This document shows, one piece after another, positions 3,786-55,414 of a DNA stretch of 64,000 nucleotides. This stretch comes from Octopus vulgaris. Its lineage: Eukaryota. The stretch covers positions 11,284,001 through 11,348,000 of the forward strand of contig OX597834.1 of assembly GCA_951406725.2 (NCBI GenBank), read 5' to 3'. Position numbers and translations under genes: made by a program. Within the stretch, counting starts at the first letter, position 1. Each line of letters starts with the position of its first letter. The notes beneath the pieces were generated by a model. It searched no databases, was not told the origin of the DNA, and was given only the letters and a program-made list of their open reading frames with translations.

Positions 3786-3904
3786 ATCTTAAGCGCTTCA
3801 CCTTTTAACACGCTACCTCTGAAGGCGGTGCAGCTAGCTGAACGAAATTTTTGGTGAAAAGACATATTTGACCCCCCCCCCCCCCATATACACATGTGCA
3901 CAAA

Positions 3905-4590
3905 TTACCACACGAATACTTGTTTTGGTCCTCCACAGACTATTTCTCTGGCTTTGATATTTCTCATTTTTTCAAGTTATTATGTGTCAACTCTGTAATC
4001 ACAGGGATGTGCAAATCTATGAACTTTGGTTATTTTGCCCTCTATTTTGTCTTCTATATCCATATCTGATCCTCTTGCCCCAACAGTATGGTCAGTCCTT
4101 ATGGCGAAGTCTCTTAAAATCCTATAATTATCCTTTTCTACGAAAGGTTCTGATTTGTGTTCAGACCATTTTTCTATCATTTTGAAACCACTCACTCATC
4201 TAACCCCAAACACTCTTTTACCGATACAGTCCGGCCTGCGCTTATACTCTTTATTTTGTTCATGTTCGATTGATGACCAATACTTTCTTCACCTCCTTCT
4301 TCTGAATATTCTACATTCGCTGTCTTACTGAACTTTGTTAATTTTTGTCTTTAACAGATTCGCTCTCATAGCTTGTTGGTGAGCGGTTCTAATCACTATT
4401 TCGGTAACAGGTTTTGGGTTCTTGCCCATCAACCAGCGCCACCTTTCTTTACTTTCAGCATTCTCGATTTGCTTGCATGACTTGACTATATAATTTCATC
4501 TCTTTCCATTTGTTTGCCTTGTTCTTTCTTCTCTCTTTGAATTCTTCTTCAGTTTCAGCCACTATTTGGGCACATGTAGCTGCCAATAGA
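3905..4590 (-). mobile_element. Same RLE-type LINE fragment, inverted copy 2 (longer, probably continuing to ~5460 beyond two SINEs)
   Basis: ORF 3980-4195(-) is nearly identical to 3509-3760(+). 3953-4382 is the reverse complement of 3323-3785. Confidence 0.7.
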
Positions 4591-4600
4591 ATTCTTTATT

Positions 4601-4822
4601 CTGGCAGAAGCGTTAGCATGCCGAGAGAAATACTTAGCGACATTTCATCTGCCGTTACGTTCTGAGTTCAAATTCCGCCGAGGTCGACTTTGCCTTTCAT
4701 CCTTTCGGGATCGATAAATTAAGTACCAGTTACACAATAGGGTAGATATAATCGACTTAATACCTTTGTATGTCCTTATTTGTTCCCTCTATGTTTAGCC
4801 CCTTGTGGGCAATAAAGAAATA
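4601..4822 (+). mobile_element. SINE family 1 (tRNA head plus Meta/Sauria-like central domain)
   Basis: B-box-like GAGTTCAAATTCC, core GTCGACTTTGCCTTTCATCCTTTCGGGGTCGATAAA, tail GCCCCTTGTGGG.AATAAAGAAATA. TSD AGAATTC(T/A)TTATTCTG at 4588-4603 and 4823-4838. Confidence 0.92.
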
Positions 4823-4866
4823 AGAATTCATTATTCTGCATAACATAATGTTTTAATCTTAATATC

Positions 4867-5099
4867 TGTTTCTTTATTACCCGCAAGGGGCTAAACATAG
4901 AGGGGACAAACAAGAAAAGACAAACGGATTAAGTCGATTACATCGACCCCAGTGCATAACTGGTACTTAATTTATCGACCCCGAAAGGATGAACGGCAAA
5001 GTCGACCTCGGCGGAATTTGAACTCAGAACGTAGCGACGGGCGAAATACCGCGAAGCACTTCGCCCGGCGTGCTAAAATCTCTGCCAGCTCGCCGCCTT
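4867..5099 (-). mobile_element. SINE family 1, full length
   Basis: Reverse complement of the family consensus. TSD TTTAATCTTAATATC on both sides. Confidence 0.92.
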
Positions 5100-5475
5100 T
5101 TAATCTTAATATCGTGGAGCTAACGCTGTCTTTTGCGTTTAGTAGTCCTCGGTCACTTTCCTTTCTTGATAGGGAGAGTCTGTCGGCATTATTTTAGGGC
5201 ATCATGCGTTGTGTACTGAGAGCAGTTTTATGATTCTTTCCAATTTCTGCTGCTCGACATTTTCTTTTTCAGAAATGGAGCAGAGTATGCCAATACTAGC
5301 ATAGCTTTTATATTTATTGCTTTAATGGTATTCCCAGATTTAATTTTGTTTCGAACACCTTCCTCTTGTCCTCTCATTTTCCTTTCCGTTTTCCTTTCGT
5401 CTTCAGTATCTCTAACTTTTTGTATAGCTCATTATATCTATGGATCGAATGATATTGTCTTGTAATTTTTATTTA

Positions 5476-5857
5476 GTGGAGGCGCAATGGCCCAGTGGTT
5501 AGGGCAGCGGACTCGCGATCATAGGATCGCGGTTTCGATTCCAAGACCGGGCGTTGTGAGTGTTTATTGAGCGAAAACACCTAAAAGCTCCACGAGGCTC
5601 CGGCAGGGGATGGTCGTGATCCCTGCTGTACTCTTTCACCACAACTTTCTCTCACTCTTACTTCCTGTTTCTGTTGTACCTGTATTTTCAAGGGGTCGGC
5701 CTTGTCACTCTCTGTGTCACGCTGAATATCCCCGAGAACTACGTTAAGGGTACACGTGTCTGTGGAGTGCTCAGCCACTTACACGTTAATTTCACGAGTA
5801 GGCTGTTCCGTTGATCGGATCAACCGGAACCCTCGTCGTCGTAACCGACGGAATGCT
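5476..5857 (+). mobile_element. SINE family 3 (tRNA-derived), full length
   Basis: A box TGGCCCAGTGG, B-box-like GGTTTCGATTCC, 3' end GGAACCCTCGTCGTCGTAACCGACGG. TTGTAATTTTT flanks both sides. Homologous to 56901-57169(-). Confidence 0.9.
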
Positions 5858-6029
5858 TCCAACTTGTAATTTTTGTCATTATTACCTCCGCCTCAGCGAA
5901 GGTAGAGGAATGTTTTCAGTCTTGTTTGTTTGTGGACAAGATATCTCAAGAACGATTGGATGGATCAGGATGAAACTTCCAGGAATTCTTGACCTCGTGA
6001 CTGGGATGAACTAATTAGATTTTGGGATC

Positions 6030-8162
6030 TATTTCTTTTATTACCCACAAGGGGCTACATACAGAATAATCCAATTACAAGACAAACATATACAATGACA
6101 AACTCGGAGAACTTAAAATACAAAAGAAGATGAAATAAGAATAGAAAAAATTAAAAGAAACGAATGGTAATATGAAAAGAATATAAAATGAGGCGCAATG
6201 CCCACTCGATCCCTGAAATCGAGTAGTTACACTTCGACTGTTTTTTTTAATTCTTTTTCATATAATGAATGCACATTTCTATTGTCTTTTTTTTTTATCT
6301 TCACATTTTACACACAGTTTCATCTCTTAAGTCTAATTTTTTCAACTCTTGATATTCGATTTCCGAGAGTCGAATCTCAGGTAATAAAAAATACTTGTCT
6401 CAAAATTTTGCTATTTCAGCAATTTCTTTTTCAAATTTGTAATACTTTATTTTTCAAAAGCTATCAAAATCCCCACCCCCTATCGTCTACAGCAAAATTG
6501 TCTTCCGGCAACTTCACTTTCCCCAGTTTCCTTATTTTCGCAACTATTCTTTCCACTTCCTCATCTTCTTCGTATATAACCAAGACACCGTGAAATTTAC
6601 CTCGATCCAAACTTTGCTTTCCTTTTTTCGCTCTTTTGTACATTCTCAGTCTCGCATCCTTCCTTACCTTTCCTTCGTTCTACTGACTCCTCTTTTTCTT
6701 TCGATTTTTTTCCTTTTTTTTTTGGGGGGGGGGGTGCTGACCCCACCGTTACTTTCCTCCCCACTTTTCTTTTTCTTTTTGTCTTTCCGGGTAAAATCCT
6801 ACTCTTCTTCTATTTTTTCTTCCTCCGTTTGTATTTTTTCCTCAATTTTATTTTCCTCTCTTTGTAGTTGCTCCTTTGTTTGTGATTCCATCAATTATTT
6901 TCGTTGTTCCTTTTCCCTTTTTGTTATGTGAGAATTCGTATAAGGGGCACTCGGTCCTTATATGGCCTCTCACTCCGCCTATGTAACAATTTGTCTTACT
7001 GTCTCTCTACCACCACATTCAATGTATTCTCTTCCTCAATTTCAAACTGGTAGGGGAATCTTTCTATGTCTTCAAATGTGGCAACCAGCCACATTTCGAC
7101 ACCTTACCCCAATCAATTTAACTTATCTCTCTTTCCTATGGATCCCAGCGTAGGGTTGTCCTCTGTTGAAAACCAGAACAGCTGCAACCAACCACTCTGT
7201 CTTGATTTCTTGGCGGCATTATTCTTGATATCCTTATTCTAACACTGCGTTTTCCCCTGTAGTTACGCTATTTTCTCTGTTCTCAGAATTGTGACAGAAT
7301 GTGAAGCTGCCTCTTCCATTGTGGCAAACCCCGCCTCCACCGTACCAAATCTTTGGATCTTTTGGGTTTGAACGGCAGTTTTTCTAGCGGTGTCATATGA
7401 AATTGTCACCCATAATTATGACCCTACTATCGATCTATTGTATTTCAATCTATTTTAGGGTGAGGGTTAGTTAGAGTTAGGGTTAGGGGTGGAAGGAAGG
7501 GTATCTTTTTTCTACACAAATGTAAATAAACCCAATCTGTTTCTTAAACGAGGGACATATTCATACGGCACATAATGTTTTCTACCTCAATGGACGTCAG
7601 TGATTGGTTGAAATTGCAGAAAAAAACAAAATATCTTACAAACTATAGAATTTTCTCAATAAAGTCAAGAGAAAAAGATGCTTTATAAACACATTCTACC
7701 AGTATACGAAGTTTAAAATATTTTAGTTACCTAGAAATTATGTTAAAAACTACCGTTCAAACCGAAAAGATCCGAATCTTTTTCCTCTGCTAATATACGT
7801 TACCTTTTTAACAATTTCACCCAGGCACTCCTCAATTTCTTCCTCTGTTACTCTCTCTATCCTTTTGGTGGCAACCTCTTGTGTCCTGTAAATTACTGTT
7901 TTGCAACTTTTATCTTCTGTAGTCTCTTTTGTGGGGAATCAATTTGATGTTATCTCCCTCCCTTCTTAGAAACTGTTCACTTCTCAAAATTTCTTCTTTG
8001 TCCACATTAATTGGCCTTGCTTCTAGTGACACTATGTTACCCTTTTCACCCAAAATGGAGAAAAAGGAACAGCAAATGCAACAATACTAACAAACTTCGC
8101 CTTCGTCAAACGATAATTCACTAATAATTCACAATAATTCACTAAATCAACACGCAGCACTG
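6030..8162 (-). mobile_element. Non-autonomous LINE derivative: 5' UTR, decayed gag-like ORF1 with zinc knuckle, and a SINE-family-1-type 3' tail
   Basis: 16-bp TSD (6014-6029 / 8163-8178, 15/16). Minus-strand 6947-6988 encodes CYIGGVRGHIRTEC (CX2CX4HX4C with C2>G). The 3' end TAGCCCCTTGTGGGTAATAAAAGAAATA matches the SINE-1 tail. Confidence 0.7.
7355..7773. mobile_element. MITE with ~28-bp TIRs and an 8-bp TSD
   Basis: TIRs GGATCTTTTGGGTTTGAACGGCAGTTTT / AAAACTACCGTTCAAACCGAAAAGATCC. TSD AAATCTTT/GAATCTTT. Internal TTAGGG-like repeats at ~7453-7490. Confidence 0.88.
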
Positions 8163-8568
8163 ATTAGATATTGGGATCGATCCGGTACCGGGCAAGGATT
8201 CTGGATGATCTTTCCAGCTCTTTTACTTAATTTTTGAGAGCGGCCGGGTTCATTCTTAGTATTCTCGTTTGCGAGAGCAGTCGAGTTCATTTCAGATATT
8301 CTCATTTTAACAATCATCTCCGGTTAATTGTTGACAGAACGTTTGTGTTGCCTTGGCGGAGCTTTGCGCGCTCTGAGTGCCCTTGTTAACATTATCTTTT
8401 TATCAGTTGCTTTCACGAGAATATTTGGACTTCACCTTTAATCGTTTCTGTCCCTGTTTTACCCGTGTAAACTAGCGTCAGTCTGTAGCAGGCGATCAAT
8501 GTGCAATTATTACCTGAGCATAAGTATCATGTTTAGCTTAAGACAACAAGATCATCTTTTATATTACA

Positions 8569-8930
8569 CTAGCAGTATCGCCCGGCGTTGCTCGGGTTTG
8601 TAACGGAAATAACTATATAAGCATTTTTAGAGATGTAAAGTATAATAGCCATCTCAATATGGCTAACCACAAAGGGGGGGTGTTACTGTAGCTTTTTACA
8701 GAGTTACTTCCCTTATATAAACCGAGCGAAAATGCATTAAAAATACGGAAAAATTATGGTAATTTTTTTTTAATCGTAGACTCATCGTAGACGCGCGCTA
8801 ATACCCAGAAGGGCTCGATATGAATCACAACTATAAGATACCCGGTTTTGGTTACACTGCACCGCAAAATGTGGGAATAGTTAGGAATCTAAATCGTAGG
8901 AGACAGACACACAACTTCATTTTTATATTA
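8569..8930 (-). mobile_element. Non-autonomous Helitron, subfamily 1
   Basis: Minus-strand 3' end CCCGAGCAACGCCGGG hairpin plus CTAG|T. Homologous to 40592-40988. Confidence 0.85.
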
Positions 8931-9119
8931 CATTCCCAGGTAAATGGAGTATAAACCATTTTCAGGCTCTCTTTAACGCAAACCACGAGAGCTGTATCTC
9001 TTTTATCTGTGCTATTTCTAGCAAGATAATCTGGCGCAGTGTCTCTGTCTTTCTGTTGGGCATTTCTCCTATTTTCTTTCATTCTTGGGGCTTGCTTATA
9101 TTAAAGAACCCTTATATTG

Positions 9120-9352
9120 AGGCGGCGAACTGGCAGAATCGTCAGCACGTCGGGCGAAATGCTTAGCGGGATTTCATCTGCCGCTCCGTTCTGAGTTCAA
9201 ATTTCACCGGAGGTCGACTTTGCCTTTCATCCTTTCGGGGTCGATAAATAAAGTAACAGTTTCGCCCTTGGGTCGATGTAATCGACTTAATCCCTTTGTC
9301 TGTCCTTGTTTGTCCCCTCTATGTTTAGCCCCTTGTGGGCAATAAAGAAATA
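9120..9352 (+). mobile_element. SINE family 1, full length
   Basis: Matches the family consensus from GGCGGCGAACTGGCAG to AATAAAGAAATA. Confidence 0.92.
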
Positions 9353-9970
9353 TATATATTGAGGAGCCCTTTATACTGAAAGTATTTTCTACCAATGACG
9401 AGGTGATGTTGTTGATGCGGTTACTGTAGTTTGCAGCGTTACCTAGATTTATTTCTTTTCATTGCAATTAATATTTTTCAACTTATTTTGATTTTTATTT
9501 TACACTTCTAATTGTTTATGCTTCAAGCTGTGTCTGTTTCCTTCATTTTAATATTGTTTTATAGAGCCATTTAGATTTTTAGCTATAATTGGTTCGTGTT
9601 TGTTTACAGTTTAAGACTACAGTATTACTGGCCTTAGTGAGAAATCCTTGCCGTGATTTTAGCGTCGTTTCGGACCAAAAGTACAAAAACTCAAATATCT
9701 GCAGTAAAAAGTAACAATTTGTCAAATAAAATTTCATCAAATATTTATTGCAACCTCAGGATACTGGGGAAAACTTCCAAATACCCGGAAGCTATTTATG
9801 TTTCTAGTTACGCCATTTCTACCAACAAACCCCCTAAGAACTCACTATCGAAACATTTGGGAATTTACACACATAGGCATACACACACATACACACAAAA
9901 AGCACAGGCAAAATTATACACATATATATATATATGTCTCTGTGTGTATGTATGTATATCTGTATGTTTG

Positions 9971-9971
<1 letters not shown>

Positions 9972-10021
<50 letters not shown>

Positions 10022-10052
10022 GTGGATAGATAGATAGATGGATGGATAGGTG

Positions 10053-10091
<39 letters not shown>

Positions 10092-10155
10092 GGATGGATA
10101 GGTGGATAGATAGATAGATGGATGAATGGATAGGTGGACATATAGATAGATAGGT
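9972..10155. repeat. (GATA)n/(GGAT)n tetranucleotide tract
   Basis: Direct reading. Confidence 0.97.
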
Positions 10156-11581
10156 GATAAACGAAGTGTATGGGAAAAGCAATCGAATATATTGAAGCCG
10201 TTCAAATAACTGGAATAGAAAGCAAGTACAAATGATTGACATCAACCCACGGACACAGGCATGCGCATCAGCTATGCCGGGAGAATCAGAAGCAAACCAG
10301 TTACTGACCAGTTTCCGCTCTGATAACCAACTGAAAACTGAGTACTTGGAAATCATTCGTTAGTATTTCTAGATTTTTATGAGCCCTCATGATTTGTGTG
10401 TTGATAAACTGCTGCTGATGTGGGATTTAAAAAATGCCAATCATATAAGGACCATTGGTCCTACCATCTTCTCTCCAATCAGTATGTTATTTGGTTTGTC
10501 CTATTTTACTGTTACCATTAACCTAAGTTCTTTCTTCTAATTTTCATAGTTCTACTACTTCGAGGTGTGGAGGAATTTTCAGAAAAGCTTGCAGACGCCT
10601 TCTTACTTTGAACCCTATTCTCTTTCATATTTTCTCCACGCCTTTTCTTTTTACTCTCCCCAAGGGTATTCCAGCATTCTATCGCTTCTATATCCTTCTT
10701 TAGGGCAAAACAGCAGAGTTACTACGCGCAATTTTGTAAATGTCATCTAACAACTAGTTACCCGAAAGAAAAAGAAGACGAAAAGCAAAGCAATATGGAA
10801 GGTGGAAGCAAACGGAGTAACAGTTGCAAGCACGAGAATTAACGCTTCTGGCCACCATTACTATGACGCAACAATGAATTACTGTATGAGGAATCGATTA
10901 TGTTGTTGATTGTAGCCTCTGGTCGAAATTCTTCAGAGTCAAGAAACACACCAATTCCTTAATAATCGTTGATTCTACTTATTTGCGTTATGCAGGATGA
11001 GGCAACATGCCTGGCTTCCAGTTCTTCATAGATCTGAGCTATAAAATGTCATAGTAATGACAAGAGGTGCTAATTCTGGGGGCTGTAAATTGTTAAACTT
11101 TCTGCTCCTATGTTCGGCGGCCATTTTCCATTTTTGTTTTGCTTTCGTCTTATTTCAGGTAAATGATTGTCAAATTGCCTTTACAGACGCTTGTTTTGTA
11201 AATCCATCCTTTTTCACAGAACCAAACACTAGGTTGACTAACCTTTCTTTGCGTTTCTTTAATGCTGTATCTCTTCACCATAATTGTCATCGAAATCATC
11301 AGGACATGGTCGCCTAAAGGTTCATTATGTGTATATCGCGATCGCACCATCGTTGAACCTAATGTTGCATGTGTTTGCCAAGAAACCAAACTCGAATATT
11401 AAGGCCAATATCTCAGGTTGTGAACATTCTTTCTCTGAGAACCATGTAGTACTCCCGCTTCCAATAGGATAGCTTATAATACAGTCACTTTACTTATGCC
11501 CTCCATTGAGTCTCTAGCATTATATTTAATATATGCTTGCATTTGCTTATTCTTCAAGCTAAAACGCGGTAAGAGCCTCCC

Positions 11582-11737
11582 GTTCAAATTCCGCCGAGGT
11601 CAACTTTACCTTTCATCCTTTCGGGGTCGATTAAATAAGTACCAGTTACGCACTGGGTCGATATAATCGACTTAACCCGTTTGTCTGTCCTTGTTTGTCC
11701 CCTTTTCTTTTAGCCCCTTGTGGGTAGTAAAGAAATA
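11582..11737 (+). mobile_element. SINE family 1, 5'-truncated
   Basis: Core domain and tail are present. Confidence 0.88.
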
Positions 11738-12899
11738 TATATTTCCTGTTACGATGCGCCTAATAAAGTCTCTTCTCTTTCTTCTGAAAACACCTGCACG
11801 TCATTTTCTTTTATCTTTCATCGAAAAGTTCAACCTGCAAGGAGAGAGATTTCGATCATACTATACTTGTGCTTGCTTCATTTTCTTTGTCTTTCCCATT
11901 TTTCATGCGCAGAGACCCTCATTTTACCTCCAACGTATCAATAAATCTGATGATTTATTAAAATAATTTTTAGAAATGATTCGATTCATTTTAAGCATAA
12001 ATTATTGCGGTAAGAGATATCACCAGCTAGACCATCACCACATTCCAATTCTTTGGGTACCATTTTAAAGCAAGAAAAAAAATGTTACAAGCGATTATTT
12101 GCCAAACGTATATACTGCGCATATAAGCATCTGAAGACAAATATTTCCTTTAATTCCTTTAAATGGTGTGGACCTTCAAAAATTTCATAAAAATCGATTG
12201 ACTTTTACAGAAAAACGTTTTGCCCTAAAGGAATCCGCTTAAGAATTACTTCTTCATGGAACTCAAACAAAACAGTAGGTTCGTTTCAAAATAACAATAA
12301 CACTCTTATGAAAATAGTAATAGTAATATTGATGATGGTGATAATAATAATAGTAATAGTAATAATAATAACAATAATAATAATTTTAGTGATGATGATA
12401 ACTATGATGATATAATAAAGATAATACTTTATTTGTCATTATATATTTTTTTATTTATTATTAAAAACAATAACATGTATTTCATTATTTTCCACATGGG
12501 TGACAGATAAAGTATACCACTTTTTAGATTGTGAAAATGCTTGAAGGAATTTTCTGGTTTTTATTATAATTATTATTATTATTATAATTATTATTATTAT
12601 TATTATTATTACTTTTTTATCGAAATCGAATAAGTAGGAACTTAGAAAATGAAATGAAATTATAAACATTACTAAAAATTCGATAATAGCCTTTGGGACC
12701 ACTATAGAAATGCACCAACCCAAAATAAACCTTCGGTACATTAACTACCAAATATATATGATTTCTTTACAACACTATCAAAATTAAATGCTCAACGCAC
12801 AACACGTGAGTGTTGAATGTATTTGTTCTCTTGTCTGATGTTGCATTCAACAAATGTACTTAATTAGACTAATTCTCTCAACTCTCATTTACCTGACCT

Positions 12900-13274
12900 T
12901 TCAGTCCCAATGCGTGGCACCTTGGGAAAGTATCTTCTACTATAGCTTCGGGCCGACCAAAGCCTTGTGAGTGGATTTGGTAGACGGAAACTGAAAGAAA
13001 CCCGTCGTATATGTGTGTATATATGATATATATATATATATGTGTGTGTTTGTGTGTCTGTGTTTGTCCTCCCGTCATCGGTTGACAACCGATGCTGATG
13101 TGTTTACGTCCCCGTACCTTAGCGGTTCGGCAAAAACAAAAACGATAGAATAAGTACTAGGCTTACAAAGAATAAGTCCTTGGGTCGATTTGCACGACTA
13201 AAGGCAGTGCTCAAGCATGGCCACAGTGAAATGACTGAAATAAGTAAAAGAGTAACAGAACAGAGTAAAGAGTA
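12900..13274 (+). mobile_element. SINE family 2 (tRNA head, CORE-like ACCTTGGGCAAGT, internal (TA)n(TG)n, (AAAAGAGT)n tail), 5'-truncated
   Basis: Homologous to the full-length copies at 33989-34389 and 48545-48962. Confidence 0.9.
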
Positions 13275-13399
13275 TATATAGTGAGCTAGTGTTTGTAGAT
13301 TATTTTCATTACTTTTGTTGCATCTTTAGCTTATGCTGTTTCTTTCTTTAGAATTTATTTTTCTTTAACTTTATTTAGAGCTCACCAGTGCTCAAATAG

Positions 13400-13888
13400 T
13401 GCTTTTTTATCGATCCGAAAAGATGAAAGGCGAAATCGACCTTGGTGGCAATTGAACTCAGAACGTAAAACCAGAAGAAATGTTGCAAGGTATTTTGCCG
13501 GTCATGCCAAATCTGTCAGCTCGTCGCCTTTAGCATAATAATAACGATTTCAAATTTTGTCATAAGGGTAGAAATTTTGGAGAAGGTAATAAGTCGATTA
13601 CATCGATTAATTCGACCTGGACGGAATTTGAACTTAGAACGTGAGGATGGTCGAAATACCTATTTCTTTATTACCCACAAGGAGCTAAACACAGAGAGGG
13701 CAAACAAAGACAGACAAATGGATTAAGTCGATTATATCGACCCCAGTGCGTAACTGGTATTTATTTAATTGACCCCGAAAGGATGAAAGGCGAAGTCGAC
13801 CTCGGCAGAATTTGAACTCAGAACGTAACGACAGACGAAATATCGCTAGGCATTTTGCCAGGTGTTCAAACAATTCTGCCAGCTCGAC
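13400..13888 (-). mobile_element. Cluster of SINE family 1 units (13400-13530 old variant, ~13545-13659 body plus alternative tail, 13660-13888 younger unit)
   Basis: Reverse-complement matches to the core and tail. Confidence 0.85.
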
Positions 13889-14002
13889 TTCTTTTTCTTC
13901 TTCTTCTTCTTCTTCTTCTTCTTCTTCTTCTCCTTCTTCTTCTCCTCCTCCTCCTCCTTCTTCTTCTTCTTCTCATTATTATCATTATTATTATCATTAT
14001 CA

Positions 14003-14037
<35 letters not shown>

Positions 14038-14132
14038 TTTATTAAGAAGAACAACAACAACTACAACAAAAATAGTAGTAATAATACTACTACTACTACT
14101 AATAATAATAATAATAATAATAATAACAGTAG
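13889..14132. repeat. Compound trinucleotide tract (CTT)(CCT)(ATT)(ACA)(ACT)(AAT)
   Basis: Direct reading. Source of the poly-S/L/I/K/N ORFs. Confidence 0.97.
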
Positions 14133-14587
14133 TATTGCTTTTGCTATTTGCAACTGCCAAGATATTTGCTCCGCGGCAGGTTATTTTTATGGGATATTTT
14201 GTTTGATGCTGCCGCTGTCAAGCATAATGATTCTAGCATTTCACATTTGCTAGTGAAGATAAGAGTATTGTCGAGTTGTTAAGTGCAAAAATGGTGATAA
14301 TGACTACTTTTCAGCATAATGATTTTTAAGATAAATTGGTTTTTAGCACGTTTGTTTGTATTCCTCTTTCCTGGTTTCATTGTTAATAGTCATATCAAGA
14401 TAGGAGACATTAGTAAGAATTATGCTATTGTCAATGTGAAATTTAATTGCTGGATTTGTTATTTTTATGTTCTGCCAAACAAACTAAACGATTTCTAATT
14501 TGCAGTGTTGTGGAGTAGAAATAGTAGCAGGTGTCCTTTAATATAACAAAGCCTAGTCAGTAGCTAACGAAAGCTAAAAGACGCTCG

Positions 14588-14640
<53 letters not shown>

Positions 14641-14676
14641 CTATATATATATCTGTGTGTGTGTGTGTGTGTGTGT

Positions 14677-14975
14677 GTAGGCACATGGCCTAGTGGTTAG
14701 AGTAGCGGACTCGCTGACGAGAGATCGTGATTTCGAATCTCAGACCGGGCGATGTGTGTTTATGAGTGAAACACCTAAGCTCCACACGGCTCCGGCAGAA
14801 GGTAATGGCGAACTTCTGCTCACTCTTTCGCCACAACTTTCTCTCACTCTTTCCTCCTGCATCTTGCAGCTCACCTGCGACGAACCGGTGTTCCGTCCAG
14901 GTGGGGAACGTATACACCAAGGAAACCGGTAACCCGGCCCTTATGAGCCAGTCATCGCTCGAGAAGGAACAAACA
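14677..14975 (+). mobile_element. SINE family 3 variant (same head and 5' body, different 3' part)
   Basis: TGGCCTAGTGGTTAG..TTCGAATCTCAGACCGGGCG..ACAACTTTCTCTCACTCTT is shared with 5476-5660. Confidence 0.8.
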
Positions 14976-15022
14976 ATATATATATATATAGTTGCAGTAG
15001 TGGCTATGGCTATAGGTACATA

Positions 15023-15176
15023 AGTGGCTGCGTGGTAAGTAGCCTGCTTACCAACAACATGTTTCCGAGTTCAGTCCCACTGCGTGGCACCTTGGGCAAG
15101 TGTCTCCTACTATGATAGCCTCGGACCGACCAAAGACATGTGAGTGGATTTGGTAGATGGAAACTGAAAGAAGCCG
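15023..15176 (+). mobile_element. SINE family 2, 5' half
   Basis: Head and CORE-like segment. Confidence 0.85.
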
Positions 15177-15244
15177 GTGTGGATGTGTGTGAGTATACAT
15201 ATATATAATATATATTTATATCTTTAGAAAAAAATGAATTTATC

Positions 15245-16840
15245 CGCTCCTACGACCTTATTAGACCACACATTGACACTCTTGATGTCATCATGGAAAA
15301 TAACAGTGGTAAGTCCAATAGAGATAGGGAAGATGGAGCCAGAACCAGAAGTCCTGCTGATCTAGTGGTCCCACAAAAGAATTGATCCCCTATCCCTATG
15401 AACAACCAGGTTGATAAGAATAGAGAATCTGAAGAAGCAACAACTAGAAGTCCCTCCCTGCCAGTGGTCCTACAAAGGAATGGAGCCCTCAACTAGAGGA
15501 ATGCAAGTCCTACTACCAGTAAAGTAAGGAAAGACCACGGGCACAAACACAAAGAAGGGAGCAGAGAGAAAGGAAAAGGAAAATATGAAACAACTAAAAC
15601 GGAAACTGAAAACCCCCAAACAAAAAACACAGCACAACTCAATTATGGAAGATACCATGGAATTCAAAACTTTAGAGGAGATAAAACTTTTTGGAATGAA
15701 GTCAAGAACATACACATTTTACCTGCAAGGCAAACGTTGGCATGGGGAAGACGGTACGAACTGCCGGTTTCTTCACTCAAGACCCCGCCAAAACTGCAGG
15801 GGTCTTAAAGAGAAATACTTCCCTAAGGAGAAGTACCAATACTCTCCAAAGAGAATGTATACAAATGCAGTGCGCTCTTGCGATGTTATACGCAAGGCAG
15901 GAATCTTCTTTGTGCTTCGCGCAAAATATTGTGCAGTAGTGGACCTGGCTGCATCAAGCTCTAACGCGGAGCTTTGCCTACTACGACGCAAAACCACCAC
16001 AATCAACAGACACAGGATGGTCTCTCCTAACACCTGCACAGTCGAAGCGCCAATATTTTTACTAAATATTGGAAGCCTGTTGCATCACAAAAACAAAAGC
16101 AAAATCTTTTTCATGAAAGACCTTGCTGCATGCTATCAAGCTCTATGCATAGCACACGAGGAAATTCATCTGATCCCCGATACGGAGGACGAAAAAGTAC
16201 AGGCACCAAAATATATCATGCTGCGAACTTACAGAAGGGAAAGGAACCATGGTTGGGTTGCTGTATACATCCGTGAGGACCTCACACCTCATATTCAAAT
16301 TCAGTATCTGATTCTCTCATTGTATACATAAGACAACACAATATAGTCATATGCAATATAGTCATATGTATACATATGCTGTATACATCCGTGAGGACCT
16401 CACACCTCAGGCCCTTCTGTCATATTCAAATTCAGTATCTGATTCTCTCATTGTATACATAAGACAACACAATATAGTCATATGCAATATAGTCATATGT
16501 ATACATATGCTGTATACATCCGTGAGGACCTCACACCTCGGGCCCTTCTGTCATATTCAAATTCAGTATCTGATTCTCTCATTGTATACATAAGACAACA
16601 CAATATAGTCATATGCAATATAGTCATATGTATACATATGCTGTATACATCCGTGAGGACCTCACACCTCAGGCCCTTCTGTCATATTCAAATTCAGTAT
16701 CTGATTCTTTCATTGTATACATAAGACAACACAATATAGTCATACGCAATACATATAAGCCACGGGGTGGTCCAAACCACGTAGGCAAGTTTGAAGATTT
16801 GCCTCACAAGAAGAAAAGATACCTTCATGAAACTGGAACG
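15245..16840 (+). pseudogene. Decayed APE-type LINE (CR1/L2-group-like): ORF1 end with CCCH-like fingers followed by the AP endonuclease N-terminus
   Basis: ORF 15585-16331: YTFYLQGKRWHGEDGTNCRFLH (decayed CCCH), then LLNIGSL..CIAHEEIHL..LRTYR..HGWVAVYIR, matching APE motifs (N..SL, .ETWL, R.DR, GGGVA.Y). Confidence 0.75.
16259..16750 (+). repeat. 131-bp tandem repeat (~3.7 copies) inside the LINE endonuclease
   Basis: Near-identical ORFs start at 16351, 16482 and 16613, i.e. spaced 131 bp. Confidence 0.95.
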
Positions 16841-17052
16841 TTAGGTGAAAGAGAAAACAGAGACAAAAAAATGGAATGACGTGGTTATTGCATAAACACT
16901 TTCATGAATGTTAAACACAATGCATTTGTGATGTACTCTTTGACTTCGTTGATTCGGAAAATTAAAAGCAATCTCGTGTAAATTCTAAGTTTGCGAAACA
17001 CACTCAGTACATTTTTCATTATCTTAACATAATTTGACATTTTATATCTAAA

Positions 17053-17435
17053 CTAGCAGTATCGCCCGGCGTTGCTCGGGTTTGTAAGGGAAATAACTAT
17101 AAAGCATTTTTAGAGAGTTATAGTCAAAAAATAGCAAAAAATGGGGAAAAAATGATGGTAAATTTTTTTGAGAGTTAAAAAGGTCGAGTCGCGTCCCCTA
17201 GACCATCTGTGGTTTGTGTTTCTGATTGTCGACTCCATGTCGAATTTATCGATTTCTTTTCAGAACTGGGGGAACTTTTCAAAATTTTCGCTGCGTTAGT
17301 TTTGAATTATGACATTGGGCTATGTGTGTGTCAAGTTTCATCAGAATCGGTTGAAAGCCGTGGTCAGGGTGAGGGTACAACCTGACAGACACACAGAAAC
17401 ACACACAGACAAACTGCCGTTTATATATAGAGAGA
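17053..17435 (-). mobile_element. Non-autonomous Helitron, subfamily 2
   Basis: TC start and CTAG end on the minus strand, inserted between A and T with no TSD. Empty site at 19299/19300. Homologous to 44573-44956. Confidence 0.92.
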
Positions 17436-17989
17436 TAACAAAACGTAGAGCATAAGGAAAAAACAGATGCATTTGATAAAATTTTCACTACTTTCCTAAA
17501 CAGATAAATACACAGAGATGTGCACACGTACGTATATTCATAGTTATTTTTATTTAAATATAGTATAATTATATATATAACATATGTATGTTTGTGCGCG
17601 CGTCTGCTTGTATATAAAAGCAACGACGAAAATTATAATACGTAAGACAAAGTGACTCCGAAATATAACTTTAGATTATCATCGCTCGAGGAGGGTAATG
17701 TAAGGAGAAGAATCTACCATTTCGAAATTAGCTTTACCTCAGAAAAAGGGCCAGCTTTGTCTCACTCTGTGTCACGCTGAATCCCCTTGAGAATTACGTT
17801 GAGGCCACACGTGTCTGCGAAGTACTCAGCCACATGTACGTTAATTTTACGAGTAGGCTGATCCGTTAAGACTGTGGATTTGCAATGCCAAGGTGATTTT
17901 TCCGCCGATATTGCAAGCAACTCCGTCAATATTTTGACGAAGGGCAGAGAATAGGAATATCTATATCTATAATGTCGCTAGAAAATGTC

Positions 17990-18246
17990 GCTAGAAGCTG
18001 GGATCACCAAGTGTAGATTGGCATACTTCGGTCATATTATGCGGAGAAAATCCCTGGAGAAGCACATCATGCTCGGAATGGTCAGTGGCAAGACAAGAAG
18101 AGGCCGACCAAGAAACCCGCTGACTTGACACCATCAGGAGTGATACCGGAATGGACATGGCCAGTCTGAAAGAAGTGGCCTAGGATAGAACTGACTGGAG
18201 GACACTGATCCAAAGAGTGACCGAGAGTCGATTTCGACTGAGCGGT
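17990..18246 (+). mobile_element. RTE-clade LINE 3' end
   Basis: Encodes RLAYFGHIMRRKSLEKHIMLGMVSGKTRRGRPR, a typical RTE C-terminus. Confidence 0.8.
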
Positions 18247-18260
18247 TAGAGAGAGAGATA

Positions 18261-18781
18261 TCTATAACAGGCAGGATGTGTGTGTGTACGTGAATGTACT
18301 TTATGCACGTCCACAAATTAGCACGCATGTCGCTTCAATTTTAGGAGGACATTGGTCACAACCATAGCTGTGCTTTTGTCAACTTATTTTGCCCGAGGCA
18401 CACACGGATAGTGATAAAGAAAAAAAGGATTTCAACCATAACTTTTACCAATTTTCGCGTCAGTGAAATCTGTAAGTTTTCTAACATGAGTTAAGTCCCC
18501 TGTCTCATAGATTAATTCACCTTACTACAACGCCTTCGAAAAAGAATTAGATTTGGACGAAGCAAGCAGTCTCAGCGTAGGAAAAGAAAAATAGCTGAAG
18601 AGACTATTAGCAGATCCATTAGTAAAATATTATAACTTTTGGGGCTGAAGCCTAGCAATAAAGGCTTGCCAATATTCCACTACAAAACATTCAATAATAT
18701 CGAAGCAATAACTTTCATAAATCAGGGTATAATTTTTGAAGAGTCTTTCTGAACCCAGTCAACGACGGGTATTTCTGCTAT
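18261..18781 (+). mobile_element. Older Helitron-like non-autonomous element
   Basis: Starts A|TCTATAACAGGCAG..TGTGTG. Ends CCCAGTCAACGACGGG hairpin plus TATTTCTGCTA, resembling the Helitron 3' end above. Confidence 0.45.
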
Positions 18782-19739
18782 TCAGACTTAATGACGTTTT
18801 TATTATTTATATGCTCTTCGTGTTTCGTGCCAAAACATCTTCAACGTAGAATTAACCCTCGTTTTAAAGGAATGGTTAAAATAAATATCTATCAAATTGA
18901 CTGTATCTCCTGTGGAAAACGAATTTTGCTTAAATGTTAAGAATTAATATTTTCCCACCTATTACGTTTAATTTCACTTTTAAAAGATATTGCAAACTTC
19001 TTCAGTTTTTTTCGTAATACATTCTGCGTAGCTGATGTATGTGTGGTGCATTGGCAGTTGTTTTATTATAATAATAGAAAAATTTAAAATGTGTGAAAGA
19101 GAAAACAGAGACAAAAAATGGAATGACGTGGTTATTGCATAAACACTTTCATGAATGTTAAACACAATGCATTTGTGGTGTACTCTTTGACTTCGTTGAT
19201 TCGGAAAATTAAAAGCAATCTCGTGTAAATTCTAAGTGTGTGAAACACACTCAGTACATTTTTCATTATCTTAACATAATTTGACATTTTATATCTAAAT
19301 AACAAAACGTAAAGAATAAGGAAAAAACAGATGCGTTTGATAAAATGTTCACTCTACTTTTCTAAACAGATAAATACACAGAGATGTACACACGTACGTA
19401 TATTTATATTTATATTTATTTAAATATAGTATAATTATATATAACATATGTATGTTCGTGCGCGCGTCTGCTTGTAAATAAAAGCAACGATGAAAATTAT
19501 AATACGTAAGACAAAGTGACTCCGAAATATAATTTTAGATTATCATCGCTCGAGGAAGGTAATGTAAGGAGAAGAATCTACCATTTTGAAATTAGCTTTA
19601 CCTCAGAAAAATTGCAGTGGGGAAAATGGAAAGGCTCAATTTTGTATGCGACGGGACATGTTGGAAATAGCTTACAATTTCAAGTCGAATTTTCTGCTGA
19701 TATTTCTAGCAACTCGGTGTATCAGCATGGCCGCTGCTC

Positions 19740-19953
19740 TGAGCTGAAACAACAGAGAGGACAAACAATGACAGACAAACAGATTAAGTCGATTATATCG
19801 ACCCCAGTACGTAACTGGTACTTATTTAATCGAACCCGAAAGGATGAAAGGCAAAGTCGACCTCGGCGGAATTTGAACCAGAACGTAGCGGTAGACGAAA
19901 TTCCGCTAGGTATTTCGCCCGGCGTGCTAACGTTTCTGCCAGCTCGTTGCCTT
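19740..19953 (-). mobile_element. SINE family 1
   Basis: Reverse-complement match. Confidence 0.9.
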
Positions 19954-20768
19954 AGGGTTCTTTCAGACTCTGCCAACCAAATTCTCTCAGAACGCTTTGG
20001 TTTGTCGAATAGAAGACGCTTGACCAACGTCCCTCGCAGTACGACGGAACGCAGGACCATCTAATTAGGAGACAAACTTCTTACAACATGCCCACATCTG
20101 CCCCAGGTGATTCCTTCAAAGAATTTCACCAAAAATTCATAGATATATAATCAGCCCTCTGTACATCTAGCCCTAACGGAAACAACTTTGTTGCAGCTAT
20201 ACTGACTATACACCTGGTATGGGAATACTCTATAAGTTGTACAACCAGCTGTTTCGCAGAGAACCAGTAAAAATGTTTTAGTATTAAGCCTCTTTCTCAT
20301 AGACTGAACAGTAACGAAAAATAATAATTAGAGATTATATGCGAAAGGTTTTATGGTATAACGATTGAACAATATATACAGAACGTCTTGGATTTTCGTT
20401 CGTATCCCCTTATGAATAAAGGAAATATCATTGGCTACCGATTTTCAACGTAAATATATCTTAGCTTTTTTTTTCTTAGTTTTATTGCGTTTATGAATTC
20501 GCTTTTATTTTCGTCGGAGATCAATGCTTACTACATTTCATCTCCTCGCAGAATTCCGTTCGATTTCAGAAAACAGAATATTATTCTATCAAGCAAATGT
20601 TTACATTTCATTATATTCATTATCCATGATTTCGCAAATATAATCTCGACAATATCTCTTGTGAAATAATAACAAAAAAAAAAAGGTCACACTTCATAAA
20701 GAAACGAATAAGAATTACCAATAAGCGCAGCAATACTGACACTATTTCACAAAAACAGATACACACAC

Positions 20769-20831
<63 letters not shown>

Positions 20832-21077
20832 CACACGTACACACACATATATAAAGGCATATTTACACATACTCAAAATCATGATGGCGGATAAAAAGTA
20901 CATATTCACTGACAAAATGTGAAACAAGGATCATAACATATGTGACGAGTCGTTTCAACTAAATTATTTGAGTGTACGCGAATGTGAGAATGTTTACATC
21001 GAAAGGAACAGCTTCATGAAGACGGGCTTATTATGTACGAGTTATTGTTTCATTTGGATGTGTGTATATGTATAAGT

Positions 21078-21110
<33 letters not shown>

Positions 21111-21229
21111 ACGATTGATACATACATACATAAATAGGTAAATAGATAAATTTCTGTTATGCATTTCTGTATACATGCACTTGAGTATCTATATATTTAT
21201 ACATTTTTCTCTGCATATATATGTGTTTG

Positions 21230-21260
21230 TATATATATATATCTATATATATATACACTT

Positions 21261-21299
<39 letters not shown>

Positions 21300-21304
21300 C
21301 ACTT

Positions 21305-21343
<39 letters not shown>

Positions 21344-21348
21344 CACTT

Positions 21349-21383
<35 letters not shown>

Positions 21384-21416
21384 CACTTATACATATATAT
21401 ATATATACATACACTT

Positions 21417-21451
<35 letters not shown>

Positions 21452-21792
21452 CACTTATATATATATATATATATATATACATACATATACATATATATAT
21501 ATATATATACATACACTTATACATATATATATATATATACATACACTTATACATATATATATATATATGTATATATACATACATACACTTATACATATAT
21601 ATATATGTGTATATATACATACATACACTTATACATATATATATATATATATATATATGCATATATACATACATACACTTATACATATATACATATACAC
21701 ACACATATATATATATATACAGATAAATAATAATAATAATAATAATTATAATAATAATAATATCATCATCATCATCATTATTATTATTATTA
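21230..21792. repeat. Minisatellite CATACACTTATACA(TA)n (~10 units) followed by (AAT)n/(ATC)n
   Basis: Direct reading. Confidence 0.95.
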
Positions 21793-21882
21793 CTCCATTG
21801 TGAATTATTTATTTTGTCTACGTATCAATGTAGGTACATATATATATATAAAGATATACAGACTAACACACACATATAGATG

Positions 21883-21918
<36 letters not shown>

Positions 21919-23174
21919 TTTGTTTCTATTTATCAACGTATATACATATGTCAGCTTATAGGTTTCTATTATGAGGTTATTTTCTTCTTCTCTTCGATTC
22001 TATTACAGAATATAATATCTAAATTGACATATAATCCGTTTTCTTCTATACATTTATGTATCTGATAATAAATTACTTTTGGAAGAAAATAGAAAAAAAA
22101 TATCAAACCCAACATAATAACAAAATATAGAGTAACTCCGAAATAATCGAATCTATAAGAACCGTATCTATATCAATCGCAATGGTAATATAAATAACAA
22201 TAATATAAATTTTCGCTACAATTTTCAAATTTAGCTACAATAACTAAAGACAAAACAGATTCATTTGTTTACTACATATTTATAATTGGACAGTTGATCG
22301 GAAGCCAATGTGTATGAGATTTCCAATGATGAGATGACTGTTTTATTTATTTCAGATGTACGTTTTGAGTGAGTGAGTGAGTGAGTGAGTTTTTTCCCCC
22401 GTCCTTTGAGCTTGTTTTTGTTTTGTTTTTTTTTTGGTTTTGGTTTTTTGTTGTGGTTGCTTTGGTTTTTGTTTTCGTTCTTAAGCTATTTATGTGAATG
22501 TAAAATGGATGGCAGCGAGTGGACGTATGTGAACGTGTTAGGTTTGTGTGTGTGAGTGTGTGTGTAATTTTGTGTCTGTGTCTTTCTGTGTGTCTAGGTA
22601 TACGCCTGCATGAATACGTACATACATGAAAATGTTTGTTATGCATGTATACATATATGTGTGTGTGTGTGTATGTATATGTGTGTGTTTGTGGTGTTGG
22701 TGGTACTGGTGCTGATGTGTGTGTATGTGTGTGCGTGTGTGTGTGAGTAGTACATTGGCTTTAAAAAGGCTTTGTAGGCTAATGACAATTTTGTGTGAGT
22801 ACCTGTCTTCTAAGTCTTGTCCTATAAATGTGCAATAAATAAATAAATAGAGAAACTCACCCCATTAGATAAAGGGAAAAGAAATATAAAACGATTATCT
22901 CCCTTATACCGGAAGAAATCGCTCATTACCTCCCCCTACCTGGAACTCTACTTTGCACTTCCTAACGAAGACATAACATGATGTAGGTAAAGACACTTGA
23001 GAAATTTGAAAAGTTAACACGAAACCGGTAATTTCTTCAAAAACTATGTTTATAAAATTCTTCCAACATAATGACTCAAATATATTCTTTAACCTTATAA
23101 AACAAAGCTTCTGTAGTTTTTTCACATTTTACTATTTTCTATATATCCAACCACGTGCTTTCACACACCAACTT

Positions 23175-31987: not shown

Positions 31988-32076
31988 AACTTACGCAACC
32001 TGTAAATACACACACACACACACAAACATATATCTATATATAGCTATACATACTTACATACATAGATACACACATA

Positions 32077-32114
<38 letters not shown>

Positions 32115-32116
<2 letters not shown>

Positions 32117-32488
32117 CAGTTCTATATTGAAGTGATGAGGAATTATCTACATTATTTACATTATTTACATTTGACGGATATTTGTCTTCATCTTGTTTGT
32201 TGTTAACACAACGTTTCAGCTGATATGTCCTCCAGCTTTCATCAGGTGTCCTGAGGAAATTTCGAACCTGGGTTCTCATTCTTAAGGTATTTTTCAATGT
32301 TATCATCATCATCATCATTATTATTATCATTATTATTATTATTATTATTATCATTATTATTATTATTATTCAGGTCACTGCCTGGAATCGAACACGGAAT
32401 CTTGGGGTTAAGAGCGAGGGCTACTAACCCCAAAATTCCGAGTTCGATTCCAGGCAGTGACCTGAATAACAACAGCAACAACAACAAC

Positions 32489-32523
<35 letters not shown>

Positions 32524-32680
32524 CAACAACATCGAAAAATACTTTCGGAATGAGAACGCAGGTTCGAAATTTCCCGAAGACACCTAATGAAGGCGAGAGG
32601 CTATATCAGTCGAACCGTTGTGTTAACAACAATCAAGATGAGGACAAATATCCGTCAATTGTAAATAATGTAAATTATGT
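32115..32680. mobile_element. Family B inverted dimer: tRNA-like head, (AAT)n, hammerhead tail
   Basis: ~260-bp arms around a 14-nt spacer (32411-32424). B box GAGTTCGATTCC. HHRs at 32205-32250(-) and 32579-32624(+, decayed). Confidence 0.88.
32205..32250 (-). ncRNA. Minimal type I hammerhead ribozyme
   Basis: GACAC CTGATGA A AGCTG-loop-CAGCT GAAA CG TT GTGTT: stem I GACAC/GTGTT, 5-bp stem II, loopless palindromic stem III AACGTT. Confidence 0.82.
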
Positions 32681-32735
<55 letters not shown>

Positions 32736-33765: not shown

Positions 33766-33852
33766 ATAATAATAATAACAATAATAATAATGATAATAAT
33801 AATAATGACAAAAACAACAATATCGAAAAACACCTAAGGAATGAGAACCCAG
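33766..33852 (+). mobile_element. Family B fragment ((AAT)n plus start of tail, truncated before the HHR)
   Basis: ATCGAAAAACACCTAAGGAATGAGAACCCAG matches ~54462-54492. Confidence 0.7.
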
Positions 33853-35569: not shown

Positions 35570-38360
<2,791 letters not shown>

Positions 38361-53786: not shown

Positions 53787-54045
53787 CTCTTTACTCTTTT
53801 ACTTGTTTCAGTCATTTGACTGTGGCCATGCTGGAGCACCGCCTTTAGTCGAGCAAAATCGACTCCCAGGACTTATTCTTTGCAAAGCCTAGTACTTATT
53901 CTATCGGTCTCTTTTTGCCGAACGGCTTAGTTACGGGGACGTAAACACACCGGCATCGGTTGTCAAGTGACGTTGCGGGGACAAGCACAGACGCCCAAAC
54001 ATATACACACACACACACACACATACACACATACACACACACACG

Positions 54046-54108
<63 letters not shown>

Positions 54109-54120
54109 GACGGGATTCTT
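53787..54120 (-). mobile_element. SINE family 2, 3' two-thirds
   Basis: Reverse-complement match. Confidence 0.9.
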
Positions 54121-54143
54121 ATGATAATACATGTACATGATAA

Positions 54144-54300
54144 TGTACATTATTTACATTCGACGGATATTTGTCCTCATCAGGTTTCTTGTTAACACAA
54201 CGTTTCGGTTGATATACCCTCCAGCATTCATCAGGTGTCTTCAGGAAATTTCGAACCTTGGTTCTCAATCCTAAGGTATTTTTCGATGTTATTGTTGTTA

Positions 54301-54366
<66 letters not shown>

Positions 54367-54421
54367 GTGGTTAAGAGCGCGGATACTAACCCCAGATTCC
54401 GAGTTCGGTTCCAGGCAGTGA

Positions 54422-54457
<36 letters not shown>

Positions 54458-54612
54458 CAACATCGAAAAATACCTTAGGAATGAGAACCTAGGTTCGAAA
54501 TTTCCCCAAGACACCTGATGAAGGCTGGAGAGTATATCACCGAAACGTTGTGTTAACAATAAACAGGATAAGGACAAATATCGCCAGATGTAAATAATTT
54601 AAATAATGTAAA
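54144..54612. mobile_element. Family B inverted dimer, second locus
   Basis: Minus arm 54144-54364. Plus arm starts TAGTGGTTAAG at 54365. HHRs at 54194-54239(-) and 54510-54554(+). Confidence 0.88.
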
Positions 54613-55414
54613 TGGCAGGAGTAATATTGTTGAATTTTAAGAAGTATGGAAGTGTTTAAGGATTCAATAATTTTTTGACAGCGAACAGCTAACGCTAAGT
54701 AGTAAATTCCATCTATCGCCAATTCTCTGCGTAGTAAAAAAAGAAAAGCAGGTTCCTATCGTCACGGGTGTTGCGCAATGCATTTGTTGTCATTGTCCTT
54801 AGTATTCACAAGCGAAACCCATAAAATGTCCTTGAGTTTCGCCAGTGACGATGAGTTTAGCAAGACTCTATTGACCCACGATGTTTATAACTTACCATAA
54901 AATTACCAGGTGATGAAATCATAGGTGATATCTTTACTATGATGCAATTTATTTCTAAATTCGCAACGATGAGCCTACAGCCAACCACGAAATGCCCAAG
55001 AGATATTCATGGAAAATTTTTACTAAAATTACGATGGAAAATCAGTTATTGTCGATAATTACACCCGAGTGAAAATCTACATAGTTGTTTTATTCTGAAA
55101 ATAAATTCACATTAAATTGTGTAATACGTGCCGATTTCAGACAGGAAAGAGAGTGAGTTGCACATTTTCTGTCTCAAACTGGTGCTTATAATACCTAATA
55201 GCACATTACATCTAAAATATTAGCACTTATTTAAATCATAAATTCATATTTATACCTTTAATAATTCACCGATATTGTTGTATTACCAAACGTTTAATCG
55301 ATAATGTGCTACGTTTTAGAAAACGTACGTAGAACCATAGAAGCCTACACACATACATACATGTTGATACGTAGACACACACACGCATACATTTATGTCT
55401 ACACACACACACAC

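What the first reader, a model, noticed from the sequence alone, without database searches (positions are those of the whole stretch)
54144..54612. Independent second inverted dimer of the tRNA-hammerhead SINE
Seen: same architecture as 32115-32680 but a different breakpoint. The minus arm stops in the (AAT)n tract, while the plus arm starts at nearly the same tRNA position (TAGTGGTTAAG). Different junctions and flanks argue against simple duplication of the first locus. Inference: inversion is built into the integration mechanism, for example a second priming event on the opposite strand.
Basis: partly seen in the sequence, partly recalled or inferred. Interest (0 to 1): 0.74.

Follow-up and report, generated by a model that had tools for sequence, protein, structure and literature searches.

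The report
Penelope back-to-back end pair
This is a back-to-back pair of end pieces of a common Penelope-type jumping gene, a layout already known for such elements and seen here in about four of ten insertions, and it likely forms when both cut DNA ends start copying the element's RNA and the two copies then join head to head.

Summary
Observation confirmed: window 54143-54613 is a head-to-head pair, not a copy of the 32115-32681 pair. But the 'SINE' is the 3' end repeat (pLTR) of a protein-coding Penelope-like element: its RT and GIY-YIG ORF runs into the tRNA-like head in 12 of 13 ORF loci. Pairs are common: 5 of 12 insertions in a systematic 1.4 Mb sample (about 10,000 genome-wide, wide interval). 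Of 63 pairs, 56 carry the 33-nt tail on one arm and none on both; 36 show a flanking direct repeat of 7 nt or more (shuffles 2.7). So each pair is one integration event, and this layout is the published Penelope signature. Junctions are enriched in short microhomology, either arm can reach further 5', and the palindromic centre reads either way round (GT 5, AC 4). This favours priming from both target strands over fold-back, but later centre deletion and gene conversion are not excluded. This locus itself has lost tail and target duplication. The scan already reported this family on other DNA of this genome many times; the junction statistics are what I add.

The parts
54143..54366 (-). Minus arm: (AAT)n tract plus 3' body of the Penelope end repeat; no head; reaches only the first 3-4 nt of the tail
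   Evidence: other copies continue into the tail at 54143 (loose ends)
54365..54613 (+). Plus arm: head from position 13, (AAT)n tract, body, ends tailless in the AATAATGTA repeat
54365..54366 (.). Inversion junction, 2-nt overlap (TA) between the (ATT)n tract and head position 13
54365..54426 (+). tRNA-like head, 5'-truncated: A-box-like motif cut, B-box-like motif at 54401-54412 with one change
   Evidence: sequence; ARAGORN only at 70% threshold; box consensus recalled
54510..54554 (+). Minimal type I hammerhead motif (helix I 5 bp, core, extra base after A9, helix II with a 1-nt deletion, palindromic helix III); predicted cut after 54549
   Evidence: features as in PMC4209133 passages; activity untested
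54194..54239 (-). Minimal type I hammerhead motif of the minus arm, core intact
54121..54142 (.). 22-nt filler with local repeats between the cut host SINE and the minus arm; stands where tail and target duplication would be
   Evidence: reading as deletion scar is inferred
53795..54120 (+). Older host SINE-like repeat with (CA)n(TA)n, cut off at 54120; its remainder is not found next to the insertion
   Evidence: 324 matches in held loci; continuation shown in six copies; nearest remainder motifs at 50400 and 61249
32115..32681 (.). First pair for comparison: tail-bearing minus arm 32115-32410, tailless plus arm 32406-32681, 5-nt overlap GGTTA
33766..33852 (+). Fragment of the same element: (AAT)n tract and first 34 nt of body

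Best explanation
The locus is one insertion made of two 5'-truncated end repeats of a Penelope-like retrotransposon joined head to head, and it likely arose when both 3' ends of a staggered target cut primed reverse transcription and the two cDNAs were joined. Shown: the repeat is the 3' end of an RT + GIY-YIG element; pairs are common; one target duplication of mostly 7-16 nt flanks the pair; one arm ends at the tail and the other 30-60 nt earlier. Inferred: the endonuclease cuts both strands; one end primes at the distal start site (tail arm) and the other at the proximal one (tailless arm), as the two start sites of the anole element do in vitro; most templates are short RNAs that begin about 6-10 nt before the tRNA-like head, likely from its Pol III boxes; the cDNAs join by a few bases of microhomology or through the self-complementary leader GCCC-AC-GGGC. 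At this locus a later (or accompanying) deletion likely removed the tail, the target duplication and the rest of the host SINE.
For: Parent element: 10 arms run 5' past the head into one shared sequence; head follows the ORF directly in 12 of 13 ORF loci; Pfam RVT_1 E 1.4e-10; GIY-YIG look-alikes at 0.96, family on 20-28% of members. Frequency: 5 of 12 body-bearing insertions in 140 evenly spaced 10-kb stretches, 95% interval 15-72%. Orientation: 63 head-to-head, 1 tail-to-tail, 7 same-direction neighbours. Tail on one arm 56 of 63, both 0 (11.5 expected if independent), none 7. Flanking direct repeat of 7 nt or more in 36 of 63, shuffles mean 2.7, max 8; 10 nt or more in 19 of 63. Overlap of 2 nt or more at 15 of 35 scorable junctions, null 16%, p 1.5e-4. 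Tailless arm reaches further 5' in 27, tail arm in 17 of 44. Palindromic centre: GT 5, AC 4, AT (unreadable) 3 on the tail arm; fold-back of a tail-primed cDNA predicts no GT. Longer arm ends at -12 to +13 of the head in 49 of 63, in the ORF region in 3 (breakpoints read by hand). In vitro precedent: PAc cleaves and extends both strands and starts at two sites that bound the tail (PMC11167929).
Against: No call observes the reaction. Short microhomology and one-sided junctions also arise from later deletions in long palindromes (recalled), and a source copy that already had a GT centre would pass it on by fold-back. Shared changes between arms are modest: outside CpG and two common variant sites 7 against 6.9 expected, and they cluster in L266, which fits gene conversion as well as one template. 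The two arms of this locus share no derived change and differ by 13 of 134 sites, fourth highest of 46 pairs. This locus has neither tail nor target duplication. 60 of the 63 pairs come from similarity searches or the window, not from the even sample. No full-length intact parent was found; Pol III transcription and hammerhead cleavage are untested. Single-arm copies with short inverted stubs show that fold-back does happen.
Confidence: 0.68

Rival explanations
1. One cDNA primed at the tail folds back at the self-complementary leader and copies itself; the second strand stops before the tail and joins the other target end; centre deletions later give the varied junctions.
For: The leader is a hairpin; 18 of 63 pairs have both arms ending near the head start; single-arm copies L007, L008, L015, L262, L283, L292 carry short inverted stubs with AC, as fold-back predicts, against one GT (L298) and one AT (L276) (read by eye).
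Against: GT on the tail arm in 5 of 9 readable centres; the tailless arm holds 5' sequence that the tail arm lacks in 27 of 44, three times parent ORF or 3' UTR; amount missing at the centre does not rise clearly with divergence (rho 0.17, p 0.18, weak test); many pairs keep the centre and lose an adjacent piece.
Confidence: 0.2
2. An antisense RNA primes on itself and the RNA-DNA hairpin integrates, as proposed for rotifer Penelope elements (PMC3846280).
For: Palindromes at the junction are frequent (14 centres with 10 nt matching on both sides); the published argument rests on that feature.
Against: Most junctions are strongly one-sided, up to 200 nt or more; tail falls on the longer or the shorter arm; PAc uses sense RNA in vitro; the head has promoter-like boxes in sense.
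Confidence: 0.07
3. Two independent insertions, or a later rearrangement, put two copies back to back.
For: This locus lacks a target duplication and its arms share no derived change.
Against: 63 head-to-head against 1 tail-to-tail; one shared flanking repeat in 36 of 63; tails never on both arms; chance adjacency about 0.5%.
Confidence: 0.03
4. Assembly artefact.
For: Inverted repeats trouble assemblies (PMC8557442); no contig spans the whole stretch.
Against: Arms differ by 9.7%; the right junction is bridged by contigs of four runs under four organism labels; target duplications flank other pairs.
Confidence: 0.01

Closest known systems
EN+ Penelope-like elements with C-terminal GIY-YIG (Penelope/Poseidon type; Anolis PAc, PMC11167929; Adineta Pen2a, PMC3846280; overview PMC8557442)
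   Same: RT followed by GIY-YIG; end repeat with minimal hammerhead; inverted 5'-truncated copy; 30-40 nt tail at one end only; one target duplication around the whole insert; AT-rich targets; palindromes at the inverted junction.
   Different: The end repeat starts with a tRNA-like head and an (AAT)n tract, and most copies begin at that head, so they look like SINEs; tens of thousands of insertions by extrapolation. Clade assignment is by motif look (no CxxC linker seen), no tree built.
L1 twin priming (recalled; mentioned in no passage I read)
   Same: Second priming from the other target strand, inversion, microhomology at the joint, one target duplication.
   Different: In L1 the second primer starts inside the RNA, so the arms do not overlap; here both arms hold the 3' end.
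tRNA-derived SINEs, including the hammerhead-bearing schistosome Sm-alpha (recalled and from earlier scan notes; not read)
   Same: tRNA-like head with A- and B-box-like motifs, short length, high copy number, hammerhead.
   Different: Here head and body are contiguous with the coding element; 3' end is a Penelope tail, not a LINE tail; pairs are inverted.
Non-LTR retrozymes (PMC7761336; bioRxiv 10.64898/2026.07.22.740005)
   Same: Type I hammerhead, non-coding copies, link to Penelope elements.
   Different: Retrozymes are head-to-tail tandem repeats said to lack promoters; these are head-to-head pairs or single arms.

Membership tests
Penelope-like element (EN+) | RT ORF with C-terminal GIY-YIG endonuclease directly linked to the repeat | tested here: met
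   12 of 13 loci; RVT_1; GIY-YIG look-alikes; Pfam scan itself did not hit GIY-YIG
Penelope-like element (EN+) | Minimal type I hammerhead in the end repeat | tested here: met
   Motif anatomy, core intact in 102 of 207 arms, matches PMC4209133 passages; no Rfam hit; cleavage untested
Penelope-like element (EN+) | Inverted 5'-truncated copy at the 5' end | tested here: met
   63 pairs; 4 clear of 13 ORF loci
Penelope-like element (EN+) | 30-40 nt tail at one end only | tested here: met
   33 nt; 56 of 63 one arm, 0 both; missing at this locus
Penelope-like element (EN+) | Partial tandem pLTR-ORF-pLTR with the tail running into the ORF start | tested here: inconclusive
   No shared continuation behind 100 tails; no full-length copy fetched
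Penelope/Poseidon clade | RT phylogeny | not tested
   No tree; only distant from the genome's Neptune-type family in the endonuclease (38% over 37 aa)
tRNA-derived SINE | tRNA-related head with A and B boxes | tested here: inconclusive
   Box-like motifs by eye; ARAGORN only at 70% threshold; no Rfam hit
tRNA-derived SINE | Independent non-coding element, separate from its partner | tested here: not met
   Head and body are the partner's own 3' end; short copies may still spread on their own
tRNA-derived SINE | Pol III transcription | not testable with these tools
Non-LTR retrozyme | Head-to-tail tandem units each with a hammerhead | tested here: not met
   7 same-direction neighbours against 63 head-to-head

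The most novel reading that the evidence does not exclude
Penelope inversions are made by two-ended target-primed reverse transcription in a dimeric particle: two RNA copies, held together by the dimer-only hammerhead, are copied from the two target strands, and the cDNAs anneal through a self-complementary leader whose G-T centre resolves either way. A tRNA-derived Pol III start inside the end repeat supplies short templates, giving some ten thousand natural reaction products that record the step.
Probability: 0.3. Interest if true: 0.72.

Novelty: new variant of a known kind. Interest (0 to 1): 0.4.

Why it matters
The inverted pair with a one-sided tail is already described for Penelope-like elements, so the locus itself is ordinary. 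How those inversions form is still open: PMC8557442 calls the steps undefined, PMC3846280 proposes antisense self-priming, and PMC11167929 leaves the steps after first-strand synthesis unvalidated. This family gives thousands of short, easily scored junctions and a built-in two-base marker (AC or GT centre) that separates fold-back from two-ended priming, so the question becomes testable. It also warns that repeat libraries would file these copies as SINEs.

Tried and rejected
Rfam at gathering and E-value thresholds and ARAGORN at default found no tRNA or hammerhead. The RT next to L002 led to a young Neptune-type family whose hammerhead differs and which does not match the body: rejected as partner. 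A subfamily split of arms could not be scored cleanly, as copies form a near-star 4% from consensus. The first junction aligner was noisy and was redone; 63 breakpoints were read by hand, and 28 pairs (tract, palindrome or unresolved junctions) were left out of the microhomology count. Pairs cut by a locus edge and 8 duplicate loci were dropped before counting. The 36 flanking repeats include some that overlap element letters, this locus's own 7-nt match among them, which is not a target duplication. No shared sequence behind tails, so no full-length parent. Contigs of four runs showed no empty site; repeats were skipped. Paper searches: 'Penelope, twin priming, inverted' gave 2 papers, neither on this by title or abstract start; 'Octopus, SINE, hammerhead' 8 and 'Octopus, Penelope, SINE, tRNA-derived' 1, none describing this element by listing; one search gave 5 general papers. 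The library lacks most subscription papers and Repbase, so the element may be named elsewhere; no supplements were read.

Full report
Observation. The window holds two head-to-head pairs. At the finding, the minus arm (54143-54366) has body and (AAT)n tract only; the plus arm (54365-54613) starts at head position 13. They overlap by TA. The first pair joins at GGTTA (32406-32410). Core divergence is 9.7% within this pair and 11.8-14.7% to the arms of the first pair, and flanks differ, so the two are independent. Contigs from four runs under four organism labels bridge the right junction, so the insertion is older than their split; no empty site was seen. The genome is 2.8 Gb in 227 contigs; that it is an octopus is my inference from recall and from earlier scan notes, not from a call.

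What the element is. A majority sequence from held copies has a 76-nt head with A- and B-box-like motifs (boxes recalled; ARAGORN calls it only at 70% threshold; no Rfam hit), an (AAT)n tract, a 136-nt body, a short AATAATGTA repeat and an optional 33-nt tail with a sharp end. The body holds a minimal type I hammerhead: 5-bp helix I, core, extra base after A9, helix II, palindromic helix III, the features listed for Penelope hammerheads in PMC4209133 (passages). Ten arms run 5' past the head into one shared sequence. Thirteen loci fetched on that sequence show an RT (Pfam RVT_1) and a GIY-YIG-like domain (not hit by Pfam directly) ending just before the head, which follows in 12 of 13; four clearly carry their own inverted copy. 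All are decayed and 5'-truncated. So the 'SINE' is the end repeat of a Penelope-like element. A second, young Neptune-type family has a different hammerhead and is not the parent.

How common. In 140 evenly spaced 10-kb stretches, 14 held a piece, 12 a body, and 5 of these 12 were head-to-head pairs: about 24,000 insertions (12,000-42,000) and 10,000 pairs (3,000-23,000). Pooling all held loci, most of them picked by similarity search, gives 63 pairs against 1 tail-to-tail and 7 same-direction neighbours.

One event. The tail is on exactly one arm in 56 of 63 pairs, on both in none (11.5 expected if independent) and on neither in 7, four of which have weak tail scores. A direct repeat of 7 nt or more lies at both outer ends in 36 of 63 (shuffles mean 2.7, max 8), 10 nt or more in 19. 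This is the layout described in PMC8557442 (passages) and PMC3846280 (passages): inverted truncated copy, one-sided 30-40 nt tail, one target duplication.

Arms. Arm-to-arm divergence is 7.0% against 7.8% for shuffled partners; without CpG 6.0 against 6.3% (p 0.03); without two further common variant sites no difference. Both arms carry the same CpG change 30 times against 12 expected, while opposite changes are not raised (8 against 8.7); in heads the CpG signal is weak (10 against 6.4, p 0.08) and non-CpG sharing is 6 against 1.7, mostly L253. Long pairs L266 and L313 share 14 of 351 and 15 of 756 derived sites, more than with any other copy, but in L266 these cluster. A common template and later conversion both fit. 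The two arms of this locus share none.

Junctions. The longer arm ends within -12 to +13 of the head start in 49 of 63 pairs and in the ORF region in 3 (read by hand), which points to short templates starting just before the head, likely by Pol III (untested). The parental leader reads GCCC-AC-GGGC, self-complementary. Where a full palindromic centre survives in tail-bearing pairs it reads GT 5 times, AC 4 times and AT 3 times on the tail arm. The tailless arm reaches further 5' in 27 and the tail arm in 17 of 44. Other junctions overlap by 2 nt or more in 15 of 35 (null 16%). A join between the (AAT)n tract and the head start, as here, recurs (for example L284, L300, L059, L063).

Mechanism. 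PMC11167929 (first two of four parts read) shows that the anole Penelope protein cuts and extends both target strands and starts at two sites that bound the tail, with a predicted protein dimer; it does not explain the inversion in the parts I read. Joining that to the counts above, I infer two cDNAs, one from each target end, joined at their 3' ends (0.68). Fold-back with later centre deletion stays possible (0.2), since stubs on single arms show fold-back occurs and source copies with a GT centre would blur the marker. Antisense self-priming (PMC3846280) fits the one-sided junctions poorly (0.07). At this locus the host SINE stops at 54120, 22 nt of locally repeated filler follow, and the minus arm keeps only the first letters of the tail: likely a deletion took tail, duplication and host remainder.

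Prior work. Eight earlier notes of this scan on other DNA of this genome describe the same family, six as a Penelope end repeat with a tRNA-type promoter and two as a Penelope-riding SINE (1031 notes fit the words). I had found the ORF link before that call; the notes gave me PMC3846280. Papers seen: PMC8557442, PMC3846280, PMC4209133, PMC7761336 as passages; PMC11167929 two of four parts; the bioRxiv retrozyme preprint one of five parts; others as listings only. L1 twin priming, Sm-alpha and palindrome decay are recalled. Searches for this element or for twin priming in Penelope found no matching paper in a library that lacks most subscription journals.

Verdict. Interest 0.4, for the tRNA-headed end repeat and a junction marker that makes an open mechanistic question testable.

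Noticed in passing
L071-L100: A young, abundant Neptune-type Penelope family (12,071 first-look candidates, many of 150 scored hits with identical score, open frames to 1,211 aa) with its own hammerhead variant.
   Followed up: partly
63 pairs, body CpG sites: Both arms of a pair carry the same CpG change 30 times against 12 expected while non-CpG sharing is barely raised; unexplained (methylated source copies or conversion).
   Followed up: partly
L007, L008, L015, L262, L283, L292: Single-arm copies with a 10-35 nt inverted stub at the head start, as cDNA fold-back would leave.
   Followed up: partly
L003:1180-1280, L010:1380-1500, L277: The same foreign 3' piece ending in (AAT)n sits inside the element's (AAT)n tract at three loci; it looks like the end of a TAA-targeting LINE (recalled, untested).
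   Followed up: no
L278, L285; L063, L282: Other repeats inserted in the (AAT)n tract of pairs, each type at two loci; the tract seems a landing site.
   Followed up: no
L032, L061: Local duplications that include a copy of the element with flank.
   Followed up: no
L057, L288, L299: Complex or same-direction multi-arm insertions, some mixing ORF pieces.
   Followed up: no
window start (from 1) and 36028-38360: Long arrays of 8-12 nt period and a long low-complexity inverted array.
   Followed up: no
window 32000-32115 and 54000-54120: Both window pairs sit at (CA)n(TA)n runs of older repeats, so neither shows a clear target duplication.
   Followed up: partly
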